A DNA stretch of 32,000 nt from Alkalilimnicola ehrlichii MLHE-1. GTDB taxonomy: Bacteria; Pseudomonadota; Gammaproteobacteria; Nitrococcales; Halorhodospiraceae. The position numbers and the translations under genes were made by a program. This document shows positions 24,174 through 30,100 of the stretch, one piece after another. The DNA lies in the NCBI RefSeq assembly GCF_000014785.1, contig NC_008340.1, positions 2,460,001-2,492,000 on the forward strand, given 5' to 3'. Below the pieces are notes generated by a model. That model saw nothing but the letters and a program-made list of their open reading frames with translations, was not told where the DNA came from and ran no database searches. Positions within the stretch are counted from its first letter, which is position 1. Each line of letters opens with the position of its first letter.

Positions 24174-27100
24174 ATGTCGCGCGACTGCATCCGGGTGCGT
24201 GGTGCCCGCCAGAACAACCTGCGGGGCTTCGACCTGGACATCCCCTTGGGCGAGCTGGTGGTGATCACCGGGGTCTCCGGCTCGGGCAAGTCCTCGCTGG
24301 CCTTCGACACCGTCTATGCCGAGGGTCAGCGCCGCTACGTGGAGACCTTCTCCCCCTACGCCCGGCAGTTCCTGGACCGCATGGACCGCCCGGCGGTGGA
24401 CCGCATCGACGGCGTGCTGCCCGCCATCGCCATCGACCAGACCAACCCGGTGCGCACCTCCCGCTCCACCGTGGGCACCATGACCGAGCTGAACGACCAC
24501 CTGAAGCTGCTCTTCGCCCGCACCGCCCAGCTCTACTGCGGCGGCTGCGGCAAGCGCGTCCAGCGCGACACCGCCGAGGGGGTGGCGGCCCGCCTGCTGG
24601 CTGGCCACGCCGGCGAGCGCGCGATGGTCACCGCCCGGGTCGCCATCCCCAAAAAATCCAGCGCCGACACCCTGCGTGAGCTGCTCGCCGGTCAGGGTTA
24701 CACCCGCATCCACGGCGAGGACCGCACCCACCTGGAGGTGGTGACCGACCGCATCCGGCTGGTGCCGGACCGCCGCGACCGCCTGGTGGAGGCCCTGGAG
24801 TCGGGCCTGAAGCTGGGCCGGGGCCACATCCAGGTGCGCCTGCTGGATGAAAACCGCGAACCCGGCAAGCCCCTGCGCTACTCCGCCGACCTGCACTGCG
24901 CCGACTGCGACATCCACTACGACGACCCCACCCCCGGGCTCTTCTCCTTCAACTCCCCGGTGGGCGCCTGTGAGACCTGCCGCGGCTTCGGCCGGGTGAT
25001 GGGCATCGACTACCGCCTCGTCATCCCGGATGACGCCCTCAGCCTCGAAGCCGGCGCCATCAAGCCCTTCCAGTCCGGCCGCTCCGCCGAGTGCCAGGAC
25101 GACCTGCTGTTCCACGCCCGCCGCCGGGGCGTGGCCACCGACATCCCCTTCCGCGACCTGCCGGAGGCCGACCGGCAATGGATCATCCAGGGGGAAGGCA
25201 AATTCAACGGCCGCAAGTGGTACGGCGTCGATGGTTACTTCCAGTATCTGGAGCGCAAGAGCTACAAGATGCACGTGCGCGTGCTACTCAGCCGCTACCG
25301 CAGCTACGACCCCTGCCCCGACTGCCACGGCGCCCGCCTCAAGCCCGGCGCCCTGCTCTGGCGCATCGGCAACCACGAAGACAGCGACGCCGTCATCGAC
25401 CGCGCCGAGCGCCACCGCCCCCACGGCGCCACCCTGCCCGAACACGCCCTCCACGGCCTGCCCGGCCTGCACCTGCACGACGTCCTCACCCTGCCGCTGG
25501 ACCGCTGCGCCCGCTTCTTCCAGGACATCCACCTGCCCGCCCCGCTGGACGAGGCGGCGGAGATCCTGCTGGAGGGCATCCGCAACCGCCTCACCTACCT
25601 CAACACCGTCGGCCTGGGCTACCTCACCCTCGACCGCCAGTCCCGCACCCTCTCCGGCGGCGAAGTCCAGCGCATCAACCTCACCACCGCCCTGGGCACG
25701 GCCCTGGTCAACACCCTCTTCGTCCTAGACGAGCCCTCCATCGGCCTCCACCCGCGGGACATCGACCGCATCGTCACCGTCATGCACCGCTTACGCGACG
25801 CCGGCAACTCCCTGCTCGTGGTGGAACACGACCCGGCCGTGATGCAGGCGGCCGACCGCCTCATCGACATCGGCCCCGGCCCCGGCGAACGCGGCGGCCA
25901 GATCACCTTCAACGGCACCCCCGCCGAACTGCTACGCACCGAAAACTCCCTCACCGCCGACTACCTCACCGGCCGAAGACAGGTGGTGCCGACAAATGCA
26001 CGCCCTGATCGCTATGGCCACAACGACGCAGACGCTGGGCCTGGCGAGTCCGGCGAGTCCGGCGAGTCCGGCGAGTCCGGCGAGTCCGGCGAGTCCGGCG
26101 AGTCCGGCGAGTCCGGCGAGTCCGGCGAGTCCGGCGAGTCCGGCAGCCGAGTTTGTAACAAAGCAGGGACACGACTCCAGGAGCGCAAGGCCGAGGGCAA
26201 CGCGCCTGCCGAGAGCGGTTCGTGTTCCGGGCGGAACCGTAAAGACGCGTGGGGGGAAGGCGGAGCCCCGAACCCCGCAGGGCCTGGCGGTGATGGCGGG
26301 TGGGTTCGTAGCGGAGCGCGGGCGCAGGGCGGAGAAGGCCCGAAGGGTGGCCGCAGGGATGCGGCCACCGGCCGTCAGGCCATGGATGGCCTGTCGGCCG
26401 GCCCCGCCCGGAGCCCGGAGAAGCGGAGCTCCGAACCCACCCGCCATCACCGCCAGGCCCCCGACTCCGAGCCAAATAACGGCTCCAGCCAAGCCGTGAC
26501 CCCGCTACCGCCTGACACCCCCAAGGTCACGATCCAGGGCGCAACCGAACACAACCTCCAGCACCTGACCGTGGAAATCCCCGTCCACCCCGCCCTAGTC
26601 TGCCTCACCGGCGTCTCCGGCTCCGGCAAATCCACCCTCATGCGCGACATCCTCCACAACGAACTCGCCCGCCGCAAAGGCCACCCCGGCGACCCACCCG
26701 GCGCCTTCCAAACCCTCACCGGCGACGAACACATCGACAACGTGGTGCTGGTCGACCAATCCCCCATCGGCAAGACCACCCGCTCCAACCCCGCCAGCTA
26801 CACCGGCGCCTTCGAACCCATCCGCAAGGCCTACGCCGCCGAACCCCTCGCCCGGGAACGCCAATACACCCCCGGCGTCTTCAGCTTCAACTCCGGCAAG
26901 GGCCGCTGCCCCACCTGCGGCGGCAACGGCTTCGAACACGTGGAGATGCAATTCCTCTCCGACGTCTACCTGCGCTGCCCCGACTGCAACGGCAGCCGGT
27001 ACCGCCCGGAAATCCTCGAGATCCAGCGCCTGCCCGACCCCGGGGCCGACCTGGGCACCGCCGGCGACGGCCCCAGGCACATCGCCGAAATCCTGGACCT

Positions 27101-30100
27101 GACCGTGGACCAGGCCACCGAGTTCTTCCGCACCACCCCGGCCGTGCTGCGCAGCCTGGAACCGCTGCAGGCCGTGGGCCTGGGCTACCTGAAACTGGGC
27201 CAGCCGGTCCCCACCCTGTCCGGGGGCGAGGCCCAGCGGCTGAAACTGGCCGGGCACCTGGCCAAGACCAGCGGCCGGCGCAAGCAACAACAACGGCTGC
27301 TGTTCCTGTTTGACGAACCCACCACTGGGCTGCACTTCCACGACGTGGCCGTGCTGCTCAGCGCCTTCCGGCGGCTGCAGGACGAGGGCCACGCGCTGCT
27401 GGTCATCGAACACAACCTGGACGTGATGCGGGCGGCGGACTGGATCATCGACCTGGGGCCGGAGGGGGGCGACCGGGGCGGCCGGCTGGTCTGCACCGGC
27501 ACACCGGAACAGATCATGGCGCAAAGCGACCTCTCCCACACCGGGCGGGCGCTGGCCGAGTACACCGGGGCACTAGAGCGCCTCCGTACGACAGCGGAGG
27601 CTTCGGAGGGGGCGGCTTCGGGCGAACCCGGGCCGGGGATGTCCGGCAGGGGGACGCAGCACTACATCGACATCCACCACGCCCGCGAGCACAACCTTAA
27701 GGGCGTGGACATCCGCATCCCGCGCAACCGGCTCACGGTCATCACCGGCCTGTCCGGCTCCGGCAAGTCCACCGTCGCCTTCGACATCCTCTTCAACGAA
27801 GGCCAGCGCCGCTACCTGGAGTCACTCAACGCCTACGCCCGCCAGTTCGTGCAACCGGCGGCGCGCCCCGACGTGGACAGCGTCGAGGGCATCCCGCCCA
27901 CCGTCGCCATCGAACAGCGCACCAGCCGCGGCGGGCGCAAGAGCACCGTCGCCACCCTGACCGAGCTGCACCACTTCCTGCGCCTGCTCTACGCCCGCCT
28001 CGGCACCTGGCACTGCCCCGCCTGCCAGGTGCCCATCCAGGCCCAGACCCCCGAGGCCATCCACGCCCAGCTTCTGCGCGAGCACCGCGGCGAGACCCTG
28101 CACCTGCTGGCCCCCATGGTCAGCGGCCGCAAGGGCATCTACAAGGAACTGGCCCGCTGGGCCGCGGGCAAGGGCGTCGGGCACCTCTACGTGGACGGCG
28201 AATTCCTGCCCACCGCCGACTGGCCGAAACTCGACCGCTACCGGGAACACGACATCGACCTGCCCGTGGCCGAACTGCGCATCGAACCGGAAAACGCCCA
28301 ACCCCTGCGCCAGGCCATCGCCCGGGCCCTGGAACAAGGCAAAGGCGTCCTGCGCATCCTCACCGCCGAACGAACCCTGCAGACCCTCTCCACCGAACGG
28401 GCCTGCCCCAGCTGCCAACGCAGCTTCGACGAACCCGACCCGCGCCAGTTCTCCTACAACAGCCCCCACGGCTGGTGCCCCACCTGCTACGGCACCGGCG
28501 AGGTGTTGGAAGGCTTCAGCGACGAGGACAGCGGCGAAGAGCGCCACTGGCGGGAGACCGAAAGCGACGACGACGCCCTCCCCGCCCCCTGCCCCACCTG
28601 CAACGGCACCCGCCTCAACGCCGAGGCCCGCGCCGTCACCTTCCAGGGCCGCACCCTCCCCGAACTCTCCGCCCTCACCGTCCGCGAGGCCAGGGCCTGG
28701 TTCCGGGTAATGCGCGCCCACTCCCCCCAGCCTGGACCAAAGGAAATCGAAGTCGATGACCCCGAAGCTGCCGAGCGGGGTGGGGGGCGGAGCACGCCGG
28801 TGCCTAGCGGAGCGCGGCCCGCTGGCGGATCAGGCCCGAAGGGTGGCCGCAGGGGTGAGGCGGAAACAGATCGGTGTCCAGTGGACACCGATCCCGCCGA
28901 ACGGGCGGGCCACGGATGGCTCGCCCCGGCCCTGCCAGCAGCGCAGGATAGCGCTGCTGAGCAGGCGGCCACCGACCGTCAGGCCAGGGATGGCCTGTCG
29001 GTCGGCCCCGCCAGCGGGACGGAGAAGCGCAGCTCGGCACCGGCGCGCTCCGCCCCCCACCCCGCGTCCAACCCCGTCGAAGTCGCACCACCAAACGCAC
29101 ATGGGCCCGGAAACGATAATGCAGAACCCTTGGCATTGACGGACCGCGAGGCCACCATCGCCCGCGACGTCCTCCCGGAAATCCACCACCGCCTCCGCTT
29201 CCTGGAAGACGTCGGCCTCGGCTACCTCAGCCTCGACCGCGCCGCCCCCACCCTCTCCGGCGGCGAAGCCCAACGCATCCGCCTCGCCGCCCAACTGGGC
29301 TCAAACCTCCAGGGCGTCTGCTACGTCATGGACGAACCCACCATCGGCCTCCACCCCCGCGACAACCGCCTGCTCCTCGACGTCCTCGCCCGCCTCGAAG
29401 GCAAAGGCAACACCATCGTCGTCGTCGAACACGACGAAGACACCATCCGCCGCGCCGAACACATCATCGACCTGGGCCCCGGCGCCGGCATCAACGGCGG
29501 CCGGGTCGTCGCCGCCGGCACCGTCGAGCAACTGCTGCAACACCCCCGCTCCATCACCGGCCGCTACCTCCGCCACCCCCTGCACCACCCCCTGCGCGGC
29601 CAGCGGCGAACCGTCAGCCTGGCCACCACCCCGGCAGGGTCCCACCCGCAACCGACAACGCCGGCCGAGCACGACGTCCTGACCCTGCACGCCCCTACCC
29701 TGCACAACCTCCAGGGCCACGACCTACACCTGCCCCTGGGCCGCCTCATGGTCGTGACCGGCGTCTCCGGCTCCGGCAAATCCTCCCTCATCCGCGGCGT
29801 CCTCAAACCCGCCCTGAAACGCCTGCTGAGCCGCAAACGGGACCAGGCGACCCCACCACTGCCCCACTGCGCCGGCCTGGATGGCTGGCAGGCCGTCGAC
29901 CGCGTGCTGGAGGTGGACCAGACCCCCATTGGCAAGACCCCGCGCTCCTGCCCCGCCACCTACATCGGCTTCTGGGACGACATCCGCAAGCTCTACGCCG
30001 GCACCCAGGAGGCCAGCCTGCGCGGCTACGGCCCCGGCCGCTTCTCCTTCAACACCAAAGACGGCCGCTGCCCTGACTGCGACGGCCAGGGCGTACGCCG

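What the first reader, a model, noticed from the sequence alone, without database searches (positions are those of the whole stretch)
26280..29065. Conserved core with covarying stems between the two element copies: structure, not sequence, is maintained
**Shared core.** The two copies share TAGCGGAGCGCGG, GGCCCGAAGGGTGGCCGCAGG, GTCAGGCCAnGGATGGCCTGTCGG and GGAGAAGCGnAGCTC.

**Closing stems.** The 29-30 bp stems have unrelated sequences yet each pairs almost perfectly. Copy A uses ggcctggcggtgatggcgggtgggttcg; copy B uses cggggtggggggcggagcacgccggtgcc.

**Compensatory changes in inner stems.**
- ccgGccg...cggCcgg in A becomes ccgAccg...cggTcgg in B.
- gggcgg:ccgccc in A becomes cccgctggcgg:ccgccagcggg in B.

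**Interpretation.** Ordinary MITEs conserve their terminal repeats, so variable but complementary termini are atypical. Three explanations seem possible:
- selection on an RNA or ssDNA fold;
- arm-to-arm gene conversion;
- an element whose outer stem is built from target sequence.
Basis: seen in the sequence. Interest (0 to 1): 0.85.

Follow-up and report, generated by a model that had tools for sequence, protein, structure and literature searches.

The report
Structured palindromic repeat inside a uvrA-like gene
Two copies of a previously uncatalogued, strongly folding repeat element sit in-frame in flexible linkers of a double-UvrA DNA-repair gene; their folding pattern, not their sequence, is conserved, but repeats of this general kind inside uvrA genes have been reported before.

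Summary
Copy A (26280-26460) and copy B (28775-29065) share exact core blocks. They close with 33-bp and 39-bp stems and fold far better than shuffles (z about -11 and -12).

That ORF is a tandem UvrA-UvrA fusion from an Alkalispirillum-like gammaproteobacterium.

Related elements occur in Aquisalimonadaceae, with at least 9 mostly intergenic copies in one MAG. Across 10 copies, 37 of 74 base pairs show double compensatory changes (0/500 shuffles reach this). G·U pairs far outnumber A·C, and the + strand always folds better. No Rfam family matches.

Copy A is old. Alkalispirillum mobile keeps its 5' half at the same site. The core diverged less than 4-fold sites although its peptide is unconstrained, and the stem stayed paired.

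Other orthologues carry GTAG-type REPIN-like repeats in-frame at equivalent sites, and the literature already reports REPs inside uvrA.

Verdict: a new, unusually elaborate family of REP/RPE-like palindromic repeats whose single-strand fold is maintained. The two conserved hexaloops match the CsrA-binding core CARGGAUG. That lead is intriguing but untested.

The parts
24174..30701 (+). Host gene: a tandem UvrA-UvrA fusion. The longest ORF starts at 24066, but orthologues start at the Met at 24174.
   Evidence: ORF list and translation. Pfam UvrA_inter, UvrA_DNA-bind and ABC_tran. Orthologues of about 1840 aa are widespread; the best is Alkalispirillum mobile at 79% identity.
26280..26460 (+). 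Element copy A (181 nt), in the NBD-I/NBD-II linker of the first UvrA unit.
   Evidence: Inverted repeat I2. Fold z -11.4. CM R1 scores 138.8 bits on + against 35.5 on -. The orthologous site in A. mobile keeps the 5' half only.
26280..26312 (+). Copy A outer stem P1, 5' arm. It pairs with 26428-26460.
   Evidence: 33 nt, 97% complementary.
26428..26460 (+). Copy A outer stem P1, 3' arm.
26309..26321 (+). Conserved 5' block TAGCGGAGCGCGG in copy A (internal-loop region).
   Evidence: It aligns to GACTCGYGGAGC in Aquisalimonadaceae copies.
26327..26332 (+). Copy A P2 5' strand (GGGCGG), pairing with CCGCCC at 26404-26409.
   Evidence: Fold. Helix 6 has 10 of 13 pairs with double changes.
26346..26369 (+). 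Copy A hairpin P3, GGUGGCCGC-AGGGAU-GCGGCCACC. The loop and closing pair read CAGGGAUG.
   Evidence: It is invariant in all copies, but the search pattern covered it (ascertainment).
26368..26401 (+). Copy A hairpin P4, CCGGCCG-UCAGGCCA-UGGA-UGGCCUGU-CGGCCGG.
   Evidence: Helix 9 has 6 of 13 pairs with double changes and 98.5% of cells paired.
26417..26431 (+). Conserved 3' block GGAGAAGCGGAGCTC in copy A.
28775..29065 (+). Element copy B (291 nt). It is inserted in signature domain II of the second UvrA unit, between residues equivalent to 466 and 468 of solved UvrA 9gxk.
   Evidence: Inverted repeat I1, 39 nt and 90%. Fold z -12.3. CM 91.8 bits. Position in the protein. A. mobile has no element at this site.
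28775..28813 (+). Copy B outer stem, 5' arm. It pairs with 29027-29065.
29027..29065 (+). Copy B outer stem, 3' arm.
28842..28973 (+). Copy B P3, with stem strands at 28842-50 and 28965-73. It is opened by a 110-nt module of three extra hairpins: 28859-98; 28903-26 (loop ACGGAU); 28936-59 (loop AGGAUA).
   Evidence: Fold and coordinates.
28972..29005 (+). Copy B hairpin P4. The loop and closing pair read CAGGGAUG, and the base pair is A-U where copy A has G-C.
26224..26279 (+). Degenerate stretch just upstream of copy A. It is probably an older partial copy or duplication of the element's 5' part.
   Evidence: In A. mobile the orthologous stretch reads CCGTAGCGGAGCGCGGGTGGAGGGCAG, resembling the element's TCGTAGCGGAGCGCGGGCGCAGGGCGG. 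This is inference only.
26043..26144 (+). In-frame tandem repeat (GGCGAGTCC) x 11.3, encoding (GES)n, in the same linker. It is not part of the element.
   Evidence: It is absent from A. mobile.

Best explanation
The two sequences belong to a previously uncatalogued family of roughly 180-nt palindromic interspersed repeats. The family is REP/RPE/MITE-like and non-coding in origin. It occurs in halophilic Ectothiorhodospiraceae-type Gammaproteobacteria (an Alkalispirillum-like lineage and Aquisalimonadaceae).

**Architecture.**
- A long outer stem evolves fast but stays complementary.
- A second compensated helix (P2) follows.
- A conserved, asymmetric three-way junction carries two hairpins in direct orientation with the same hexaloop (A-R/U-GGA-U).

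**Location.** Elsewhere the element sits in intergenic space, often between convergent genes. Here two copies landed in permissive surface linkers of a tandem uvrA-like gene. They kept the reading frame and are translated as unconstrained linker peptide, as Rickettsia palindromic elements and the REPs reported in other uvrA genes are.

**What is conserved.** The conserved feature is the fold of the G-rich (+, sense) strand as a single strand, either mRNA or top-strand ssDNA.

**Shown.** Family membership, the fold, covariation, strand asymmetry, the in-frame location, the antiquity of copy A, and nucleotide-level constraint without peptide constraint.

**Inferred.** The element spreads, or spread, as a non-autonomous mobile element, most plausibly through a hairpin-recognising single-strand (HUH/Y1, RAYT- or TIRYT-like) transposase. 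The stems are kept paired by selection on the fold, possibly helped by template-switch correction between the arms.
For: - **Real and structured.** Exact shared blocks, long stems, and MFE z of -11.4 and -12.3.
- **Repeat family.** At least 9 loci in one Aquisalimonadaceae MAG, plus two Aquisalimonas species, carry the same architecture. CM R1 scores them at 141-200 bits and the window copies at 139 and 92 bits.
- **Typical REP-like placement.** Aquisalimonadaceae copies lie 8-100 nt beyond stop codons, and 5 of 8 lie between convergent genes.
- **Covariation.** 37 of 74 pairs have changes on both sides (0/500 shuffles). 92.5% of cells are paired, against 30-47% when slid.
- **Strand specificity.** G·U 39 against A·C 6. 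The + strand MFE is lower than the - strand in 10 of 10 copies.
- **In-frame in linkers.** A single 2211-codon ORF. The inserts coincide with gaps in orthologues. Site B falls between adjacent residues of solved UvrA.
- **Peptide unconstrained.** 7 synonymous against 30 nonsynonymous codon differences in the site A linker, compared with 375 against 193 elsewhere in the gene.
- **Age and maintenance.** A. mobile retains the 5' half at the same site. Core divergence is 4/48 against 25.6% at 4-fold sites (p = 0.0055). About 7.9 stem mismatches are expected if both arms drifted, and 1 is observed (P = 0.003).
- **Same phenomenon in relatives.** Orthologues L023 and L024 each carry three in-frame copies of GTAG-type hairpin repeats at equivalent sites.
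- **Literature.** REPs inside uvrA (PMC3733652), RPEs in-frame (PMC10969869), and compensatory changes in REPINs (PMC3116915).
Against: - Mobility is not shown. No transposase, no target-site duplication and no clean empty site were found.
- Only two copies are known in the window's own lineage. Both are in one gene, and the 32-kb window has none in its intergenic regions.
- The window's genome could not be scanned.
- In-situ conservation of the core of a fixed copy is not what a purely selfish, decaying insertion predicts. It hints at a host-level role or at conversion from other copies.
- The 10 sequences are related, and 8 come from one family-level clade. Cell counts therefore overstate the number of independent events.
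- P3 invariance is an ascertainment effect of the search pattern.
Confidence: 0.7

Rival explanations
1. The element is a host-selected functional RNA module rather than selfish DNA. It is transcribed within host mRNAs (3' UTRs, and here the uvrA-like ORF). It presents two or more GGA hexaloop hairpins that bind the global regulator CsrA/RsmA. It would either recruit transcripts into the Csr regulon or act as a dispersed sponge.
For: - Both conserved loops with their closing pairs read CARGGAUG. The Aquisalimonadaceae P4 reads ACAGGGAUGU, which is 10 of 10 to the ACARGGAUGU part of the SELEX consensus RUACARGGAUGU. It is a 6-nt loop closed by AC/GU, exactly the favoured SELEX architecture (consensus from PMC7652899).
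- The two loops are 27 nt apart, within the 10-63 nt range for dual-site binding by one dimer (for positions, for the range).
- Copy B lost the P3 loop to an insertion, but the inserted module supplies two new GGA loops, ACGGAU and AGGAUA.
- The sense strand is the better-folding, G·U-tolerant strand.
- The core is under nucleotide-level constraint in situ.
Against: - Total GGA count is not enriched over dinucleotide-preserving shuffles (p 0.05-0.65 per copy).
- CARGGATG is not enriched in the window as a whole (5 observed against 2.5 expected).
- No Rfam Csr/Rsm or TwoAYGGAY match was found.
- The stems are much longer than the 4 bp or fewer favoured in SELEX.
- A. mobile lost half of copy A while the ORF remained uninterrupted.
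- The match was noticed post hoc.
- The presence of csrA in these genomes was not checked.
- A conserved loop could equally be a transposase recognition site.
Confidence: 0.13
2. Complementarity of the arms is kept by a DNA-level mechanism alone, with no selection on any fold. During replication, template switching between the arms of an imperfect inverted repeat (quasipalindrome correction) copies one arm from the other.
For: - Several copies differ by matching length changes in both arms. L002 and L015 have 4 extra nt in each arm, and L014 has 2 in each. These are hard to obtain through independent mutations.
- Copy A's stem stayed 32/33 paired while the arm sequence diverged 18% from A. mobile.
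- Template-switch mutations that perfect quasipalindromes are an established process in E. coli and yeast (PMC7202029, PMC3820800; titles and abstracts seen).
Against: - Conversion would give Watson-Crick pairs without preference. It does not explain the excess of G·U over A·C (39 against 6) or the consistent + strand advantage.
- It does not explain the constraint on the unpaired or asymmetric core (4/48 against 25.6%).
- It does not explain the conserved loops.
Confidence: 0.1
3. It is a classical MITE. The stems are terminal inverted repeats recognised as duplex DNA by a DDE transposase of a parent insertion sequence.
For: - The element is multi-copy, small and non-coding, with inverted termini.
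- The outermost ~10 nt (GGTCGGCTGG) are shared among Aquisalimonadaceae copies.
Against: - Copies A and B have unrelated termini.
- No target-site duplication is detectable.
- The pairing extends over the whole element with compensatory changes and strand-specific G·U pairs. Duplex TIR recognition does not require this.
- No IS with these ends was found in the loci held.
Confidence: 0.05
4. The outer stem is not part of the element but is generated from, or pre-exists in, the target. An example would be a core element that inserts into the loop of resident palindromes.
For: - A and B outer arms are unrelated.
- The conserved blocks end exactly at the inner foot of P1.
Against: - Nine loci in one MAG share homologous outer stems with conserved outermost bases and a conserved 3' tail GGATCGAAGCC.
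- A's arm resembles an Aquisalimonadaceae arm (p = 0.003).
- A. mobile has the same arm at the orthologous site.
Confidence: 0.02

Closest known systems
Intragenic REPs in DNA-repair genes (Di Nocera et al. 2013, PMC3733652), including two REP dimers in a Thioalkalivibrio uvrA and double inserts in both uvrA genes of Opitutus terrae
   Same: - Palindromic repeats are inserted in-frame, more than once, at different sites of a uvrA gene in a related family of bacteria.
- Their usual location is downstream of ORFs or between convergent ORFs.
- G·T pairing in stems is taken as a sign of transcription.
- I saw the same thing directly in orthologues L023 and L024.
   Different: - Those REPs are 20-40 bp stem-loops tagged by GTAG or CGTC and occur as dimers.
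- This element is 181-291 nt with an asymmetric three-way junction, has no conserved tag, and has fast-evolving termini.
Rickettsia palindromic elements (RPEs)
   Same: They are palindromic repeats of about 100-150 bp found in-frame inside functional protein-coding genes. They encode extra peptide segments in surface or linker regions (PMC10969869).
   Different: - RPEs occur in an unrelated lineage (AT-rich alphaproteobacteria).
- There is no evidence of sequence relationship.
- RPE families are said to encode a conserved peptide. Here the peptide is not conserved.
REPINs (REP doublets forming hairpins) mobilised by RAYTs
   Same: - They form long hairpins in ssDNA or RNA.
- Compensatory changes on the two sides are common (PMC3116915).
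- They are vertically persistent and mostly extragenic.
   Different: - A REPIN is two REPs in inverted orientation, with conserved ends and a variable spacer.
- Here the two inner hairpins are in direct orientation with identical loops. The centre is conserved and the ends vary.
- No RAYT link was testable.
CsrA/RsmA-binding RNAs (CsrB, RsmX/Y/Z) and the TwoAYGGAY motif (Rfam RF01731)
   Same: They present multiple hairpins with GGA in the loops. This element has two adjacent hairpins with near-identical A-N-GGA-Y hexaloops.
   Different: - No covariance-model match, even at E <= 10.
- The element is a dispersed repeat embedded in other transcripts, with no promoter or terminator of its own.
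- It has only 2-3 loop GGAs.

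Membership tests
REP (GTAG/CGTC-tagged repetitive extragenic palindromes) | Short (20-40 bp) stem-loop with a conserved GTAG or CGTC tetranucleotide at one end | tested here: not met
   The element is 181-291 nt. GTAG occurs in copy A (26308-11), but copy B has CTAG, and the Aquisalimonadaceae copies have CTCG at the aligned position.
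REP / REPIN | Association with a RAYT (Y1 HUH transposase) gene flanked by the same repeats | not testable with these tools
REPIN | Two REP units in inverted orientation forming one hairpin, with conserved ends and a variable spacer | tested here: not met
   P3 and P4 are in direct orientation with the same loop (AGGGAU / AUGGAU). The centre is conserved and the termini are variable.
MITE | Terminal inverted repeats conserved among copies | tested here: inconclusive
   The outermost 10 nt are shared among Aquisalimonadaceae copies. Window copies A and B have unrelated arms.
MITE | Target-site duplications flanking the copies | tested here: not met
   No flanking direct repeat is consistent across the 10 copies. 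The ends are ragged and no clean empty site is available.
MITE / interspersed repeat in general | Multiple dispersed copies per genome | tested here: met
   At least 9 loci on 7 contigs of MAG JBBDNK01. Only 2 copies are visible in the window's lineage.
RPE-like intragenic palindromic insertion | Palindromic repeat inserted in-frame in a conserved protein-coding gene, without disrupting the ORF, at a position that is a gap in orthologues | tested here: met
RPE-like intragenic palindromic insertion | Sequence relationship to a described RPE family | not tested
   No RPE sequences are held. The host lineage and base composition make homology unlikely.
Rfam families (all 4227, including CsrB/Rsm, TwoAYGGAY, ribozymes) | Covariance-model score at or above the gathering threshold | tested here: not met
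   There are no hits at gathering score for the window or the loci. At E <= 10 only chance-level hits appear: mir-2796 at 17 bits and Hrs13 at 21 bits against a threshold of 52.
CsrA/RsmA binding site | GGA in a hairpin hexaloop within the CARGGAUG core, with two sites 10-63 nt apart | tested here: met
   P3 reads CAGGGAUG. P4 reads CAUGGAUG in copy A, and CAGGGAUG in copy B and the Aquisalimonadaceae copies. The loops are 27 nt apart (consensus). This is a sequence match only.
CsrA/RsmA binding site | Demonstrated binding or CsrA-dependent regulation | not testable with these tools
   This needs EMSA, CLIP or genetics.

The most novel reading that the evidence does not exclude
The element is a mobile, self-contained CsrA/RsmA-docking RNA module. 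Wherever it lands and is transcribed, it places two high-affinity GGA hexaloops on a rigid scaffold. It would then wire that transcript into the Csr regulon, or collectively titrate CsrA. Here the affected transcript would be a uvrA-like repair gene. The host would then maintain it in situ, which would explain the nucleotide-level constraint and preserved stem of copy A since the split from Alkalispirillum mobile.
Probability: 0.1. Interest if true: 0.8.

Novelty: new variant of a known kind. Interest (0 to 1): 0.45.

Why it matters
The finding adds a well-supported structured repeat family to those absent from Rfam. The family has a three-way junction, real covariation and a strand-specific fold.

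It also adds a clear case to an unexplained pattern noted in 2013. Palindromic repeats turn up repeatedly, and in-frame, in uvrA and other repair genes.

One copy can be dated by an orthologous, half-deleted copy in a sister species. This gives a rare natural test of whether such insertions decay like junk or are maintained. Here the core and the pairing are maintained, although the encoded peptide is not.

If the match between the loops and the CsrA consensus is functional, mobile repeats would be a vehicle for spreading post-transcriptional control.

Tried and rejected
- **Rfam** (gathering and E <= 10) on the window and on the Aquisalimonadaceae loci: no family.
- **Protein search with the element-encoded peptide:** no candidate.
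- **Six-frame concatenate of window and Aquisalimonadaceae elements:** nothing at E <= 0.01. In hindsight the threshold was too strict for 60-aa segments.
- **phmmer of the copy A peptide against 1.84 billion representatives:** one spurious low-complexity hit, P0121.
- **Metagenome scan with the 21-mer:** only simple terminator-like hairpins and duplicates of genome hits.
- **Plasmid blastn and a viral scan:** nothing.
- **Exact-protein lookup of a window gene:** not on record, so the source genome itself could not be reached.
- **Overall GGA enrichment:** not significant against dinucleotide shuffles.
- **Remnant of copy B in A. mobile:** local alignment is no better than shuffles (p = 0.46).
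- **Orientation bias relative to neighbouring genes:** uninformative, because most Aquisalimonadaceae copies lie between convergent genes.
- **Target-site duplications:** none consistent.

Considered and dropped by inspection:
- Integron attC: no GTTRRRY or RYYYAAC core sites at the ends.
- Retron msr/msd: no adjacent reverse transcriptase.
- Tn3-type TIMEs: no GGGG...38-bp IR.
- Intron or intein: the ORF reads straight through, and A. mobile tolerates half an element.

Full report
**1. The observation**

The region was read directly. The four shared blocks are exact in both copies.
- GGCCCGAAGGGTGGCCGCAGG lies at 26337-57 and 28833-53, with 0.01 matches expected by chance.
- GTCAGGCCANGGATGGCCTGTCGG lies at 26374-97 and 28978-29001.
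- TAGCGGAGCGCGG and GGAGAAGCGnAGCTC lie at the positions listed.

The closing stems are 33 nt at 97% complementarity (26280-26312 with 26428-26460) and 39 nt at 90% (28775-28813 with 29027-29065).

As RNA the two copies fold to -156.2 and -240.6 kcal/mol. The z-scores are -11.4 and -12.3, and no shuffle folds as well. Both share one architecture:
- an outer stem P1;
- an internal-loop region holding the two conserved GGAGC-containing blocks;
- a helix P2;
- a three-way junction, GGCCCGAAGGGU-[P3]-[P4]-GGCC.

Copy B is longer because three extra hairpins are inserted in the P3 loop. A filters-off covariance-model search finds no third copy in the 32-kb window.

**2.

Both copies lie inside one uninterrupted ORF, 24066-30701, with the likely true start at 24174. 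They have the same orientation and the same reading frame.

The protein is a tandem UvrA-UvrA fusion (Pfam). This is a normal protein of about 1840 aa, widespread in Ectothiorhodospiraceae, Chromatiales and beyond. The closest relative is Alkalispirillum mobile, at 1963 aa and 79% identity. The window is therefore from an Alkalispirillum-like gammaproteobacterium, and it also carries lpxC.

Alignment with orthologues shows that the window protein is about 350 aa too long because of two insert regions.
- Site A is the NBD-I/NBD-II linker of the first UvrA unit. It holds copy A, an 11-unit GGCGAGTCC tandem repeat and some degenerate sequence.
- Site B is a single point in signature domain II of the second unit. 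It falls between residues equivalent to 466 and 468 of solved UvrA 9gxk.

**3. Relatives elsewhere**

No Rfam family matches.

A scan of one genome per species for the 21-mer returned 16 loci.
- Nine are from one Aquisalimonadaceae MAG.
- Two are from Aquisalimonas species.

These carry elements of the same architecture and about 182-217 nt. The metagenome, plasmid and viral searches added nothing.

A covariance model built from 10 full copies scores the Aquisalimonadaceae copies at 141-200 bits and the window copies at 139 and 92 bits. Reverse strands score far lower.

The Aquisalimonadaceae copies are intergenic and lie 8-100 nt beyond stop codons. Five of eight lie between convergent genes and one lies in a divergent promoter region. 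That is the usual habitat of REP-type repeats. It leaves orientation relative to transcription undecidable.

**4. Is structure conserved rather than sequence?**

On the MAFFT alignment, which was not fitted to the structure, the results are as follows.
- 92.5% of cells form standard pairs, against 30-47% when partners are slid by 1-3 columns.
- 37 of 74 pairs have changes on both sides, against 13.4 +/- 2.5 in column shuffles (0/500 reach it).

The compensated helices are P1, P2 and P4. P3 never varies, but the search pattern covered it, so that says nothing.

Copies A and B have outer arms with no similarity beyond composition (z = -0.08). A's arm does resemble one Aquisalimonadaceae arm (p = 0.003, about 0.02 after correction).

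Several copies differ by matching length changes in both arms.

G·U/U·G cells outnumber A·C/C·A 39 to 6, or 20 to 5 without one dubious helix. The + strand is more stable than the - strand in all 10 copies. The fold that matters is therefore that of the G-rich, sense strand as a single strand, RNA or ssDNA.

Caveat: eight of the ten sequences come from one clade, so cells are not independent events.

**5. Age and maintenance of copy A**

The A. mobile locus (L022) aligns with the window at 87% nucleotide identity over the gene. At site A it carries the 5' half of the element, through the P3 loop. A 150-nt in-frame deletion then removes the rest. The insertion therefore predates the split.

Divergence between the two species:

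| Region | Differences | Note |
|---|---|---|
| 4-fold degenerate sites | 25.6% (259/1012) | Reference rate |
| Element core (non-P1), 5' half | 4/48 | Fisher p = 0.0055 against 4-fold sites |
| P1 arm | 6/33 | Not different from 4-fold sites |

The peptide is not conserved. In the site A linker there are 7 synonymous against 30 nonsynonymous codon differences. Elsewhere in the gene the counts are 375 against 193.

If both arms of P1 had drifted at half the 4-fold rate in the window lineage, about 7.9 mismatched pairs would be expected. One is seen (Poisson P = 0.003).

A fixed, translated copy has thus kept its core sequence and its pairing without protein-level constraint. Selection for transposability cannot act on a resident copy. 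This points to one of three things:
- a host-level effect of the fold;
- conversion between the arms;
- conversion from other copies.

At site B, A. mobile has a different short insert and no significant remnant of the element.

**6. The same gene collects repeats in other lineages**

Orthologues with extra length carry other repeated peptides at the same permissive sites. The DNA confirms that these are palindromic repeats.
- L023 has three copies of a 93-nt hairpin repeat with ...CCACCCTAC / GTAGGGTGG... arms.
- L024 has three copies of another GTAG-type repeat.

This matches the published observation that REPs occur inside uvrA and other replication and repair genes. That report includes Thioalkalivibrio and both genes of Opitutus terrae. 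In some species these are the only REP-tagged ORFs (PMC3733652).

In-frame palindromic inserts are classic for Rickettsia RPEs (PMC10969869). Compensatory changes are described as common in REPIN hairpins (PMC3116915).

**7. What it is not**

- **Not a GTAG/CGTC REP.** The size is wrong and there is no conserved tag.
- **Not a REPIN.** The inner hairpins are direct rather than inverted. The centre is conserved and the ends vary.
- **Not convincingly a classical MITE.** There is no target-site duplication and the termini are variable.
- **Not an Rfam family**.

**8. A lead on function**

The conserved loops with their closing pairs read CAGGGAUG, or CAUGGAUG in copy A's P4. The Aquisalimonadaceae P4 reads ACAGGGAUGU.

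The CsrA SELEX consensus is RUACARGGAUGU. It typically forms a 6-nt loop closed by AC/GU, and dimers bridge two sites 10-63 nt apart (PMC7652899). Here the two loops are 27 nt apart.

Copy B's inserted module brings ACGGAU and AGGAUA loops.

Against this reading:
- GGA is not enriched overall.
- The stems are long.
- There is no Csr/Rsm or TwoAYGGAY model match.
- The resemblance was noticed post hoc.
- The loops could equally be a transposase recognition feature.

I rate this reading at about 0.1.

**9. Verdict**

This is a real and well-supported structured repeat. It is a new and unusually elaborate family within the known phenomenon of REP/RPE-like palindromic elements inserted in-frame in uvrA-type genes.

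Its favoured first explanation is the best supported. Its third explanation, a target-derived stem, is not supported.

Mechanism of spread and any host function remain inferred.

Noticed in passing
window 26043-26144: A perfect in-frame tandem repeat (GGCGAGTCC) x 11.3 encodes (Gly-Glu-Ser)n in the same linker as copy A. It is absent from the A. mobile orthologue, so it expanded recently. It is likely length-polymorphic.
   Followed up: partly
window 26224-26279; L022 about 11870-11925: Just upstream of copy A lies a degenerate stretch. In A. mobile it reads CCGTAGCGGAGCGCGGGTGGAGGGCAG, resembling the element's own 5' block. This looks like an older partial copy or a local duplication, so site A was hit or rearranged more than once.
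   Followed up: partly
L023:2201-2293, 2753-2845, 3881-3973; L024:11365-11420, 11923-11978, 13045-13100: Orthologous tandem-uvrA genes of two other Ectothiorhodospiraceae-type MAGs each carry three in-frame copies of GTAG-type hairpin (REPIN-like) repeats. They sit at sites equivalent to window sites A and B and at the inter-UvrA linker. Natronocella (P0002) has the peptide GALRFANAPY(N/S)T twice. The gene is a recurrent sink for lineage-specific palindromic repeats. The Aquisalimonadaceae orthologue P0006 has none.
   Followed up: partly
window 24066-24173: The longest ORF starts 36 codons upstream of the start used by all orthologues (MSRD..., 24174). The upstream extension is probably not translated.
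   Followed up: yes
window 30745-30776: A short G+C-rich hairpin lies between the convergent stops of the uvrA-like gene (30701) and lpxC (30801). It is probably a bidirectional terminator and is unrelated to the element.
   Followed up: no
L013:4325-4566 and 4709-4866: A Chromatiales MAG contig, with N gaps, carries a different repeat that shares the 21-mer. It contains four hairpins with GCAGGGA/GCAGGGT loops, next to ordinary GTAG REPs. This suggests the GGCCGC-AGGGAW-GCGGCC hairpin is a module reused by several repeat families.
   Followed up: no
L001:98-172, L016:6755-6833, L011:723-743: The same 21-mer occurs in simple perfect palindromes of a Desulfarculaceae MAG and next to a CCATGGATGG-containing hairpin in a Pseudomonas MAG. 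Whether this reflects chance, convergence or distant relationship is not resolved.
   Followed up: no
L005:6477-6693; L007:130-395: Two variants were seen within the family. The Aquisalimonas sp. APHAB1-3 copy has an extra 34-nt hairpin inserted on the 3' side, a modular hairpin gain like that in window copy B. In L007 the outer stem extends to about 45 bp (GGTTCAGGGGCTTCGATCC...), whereas other copies keep only the 3' tail GGATCGAAGCC.
   Followed up: partly
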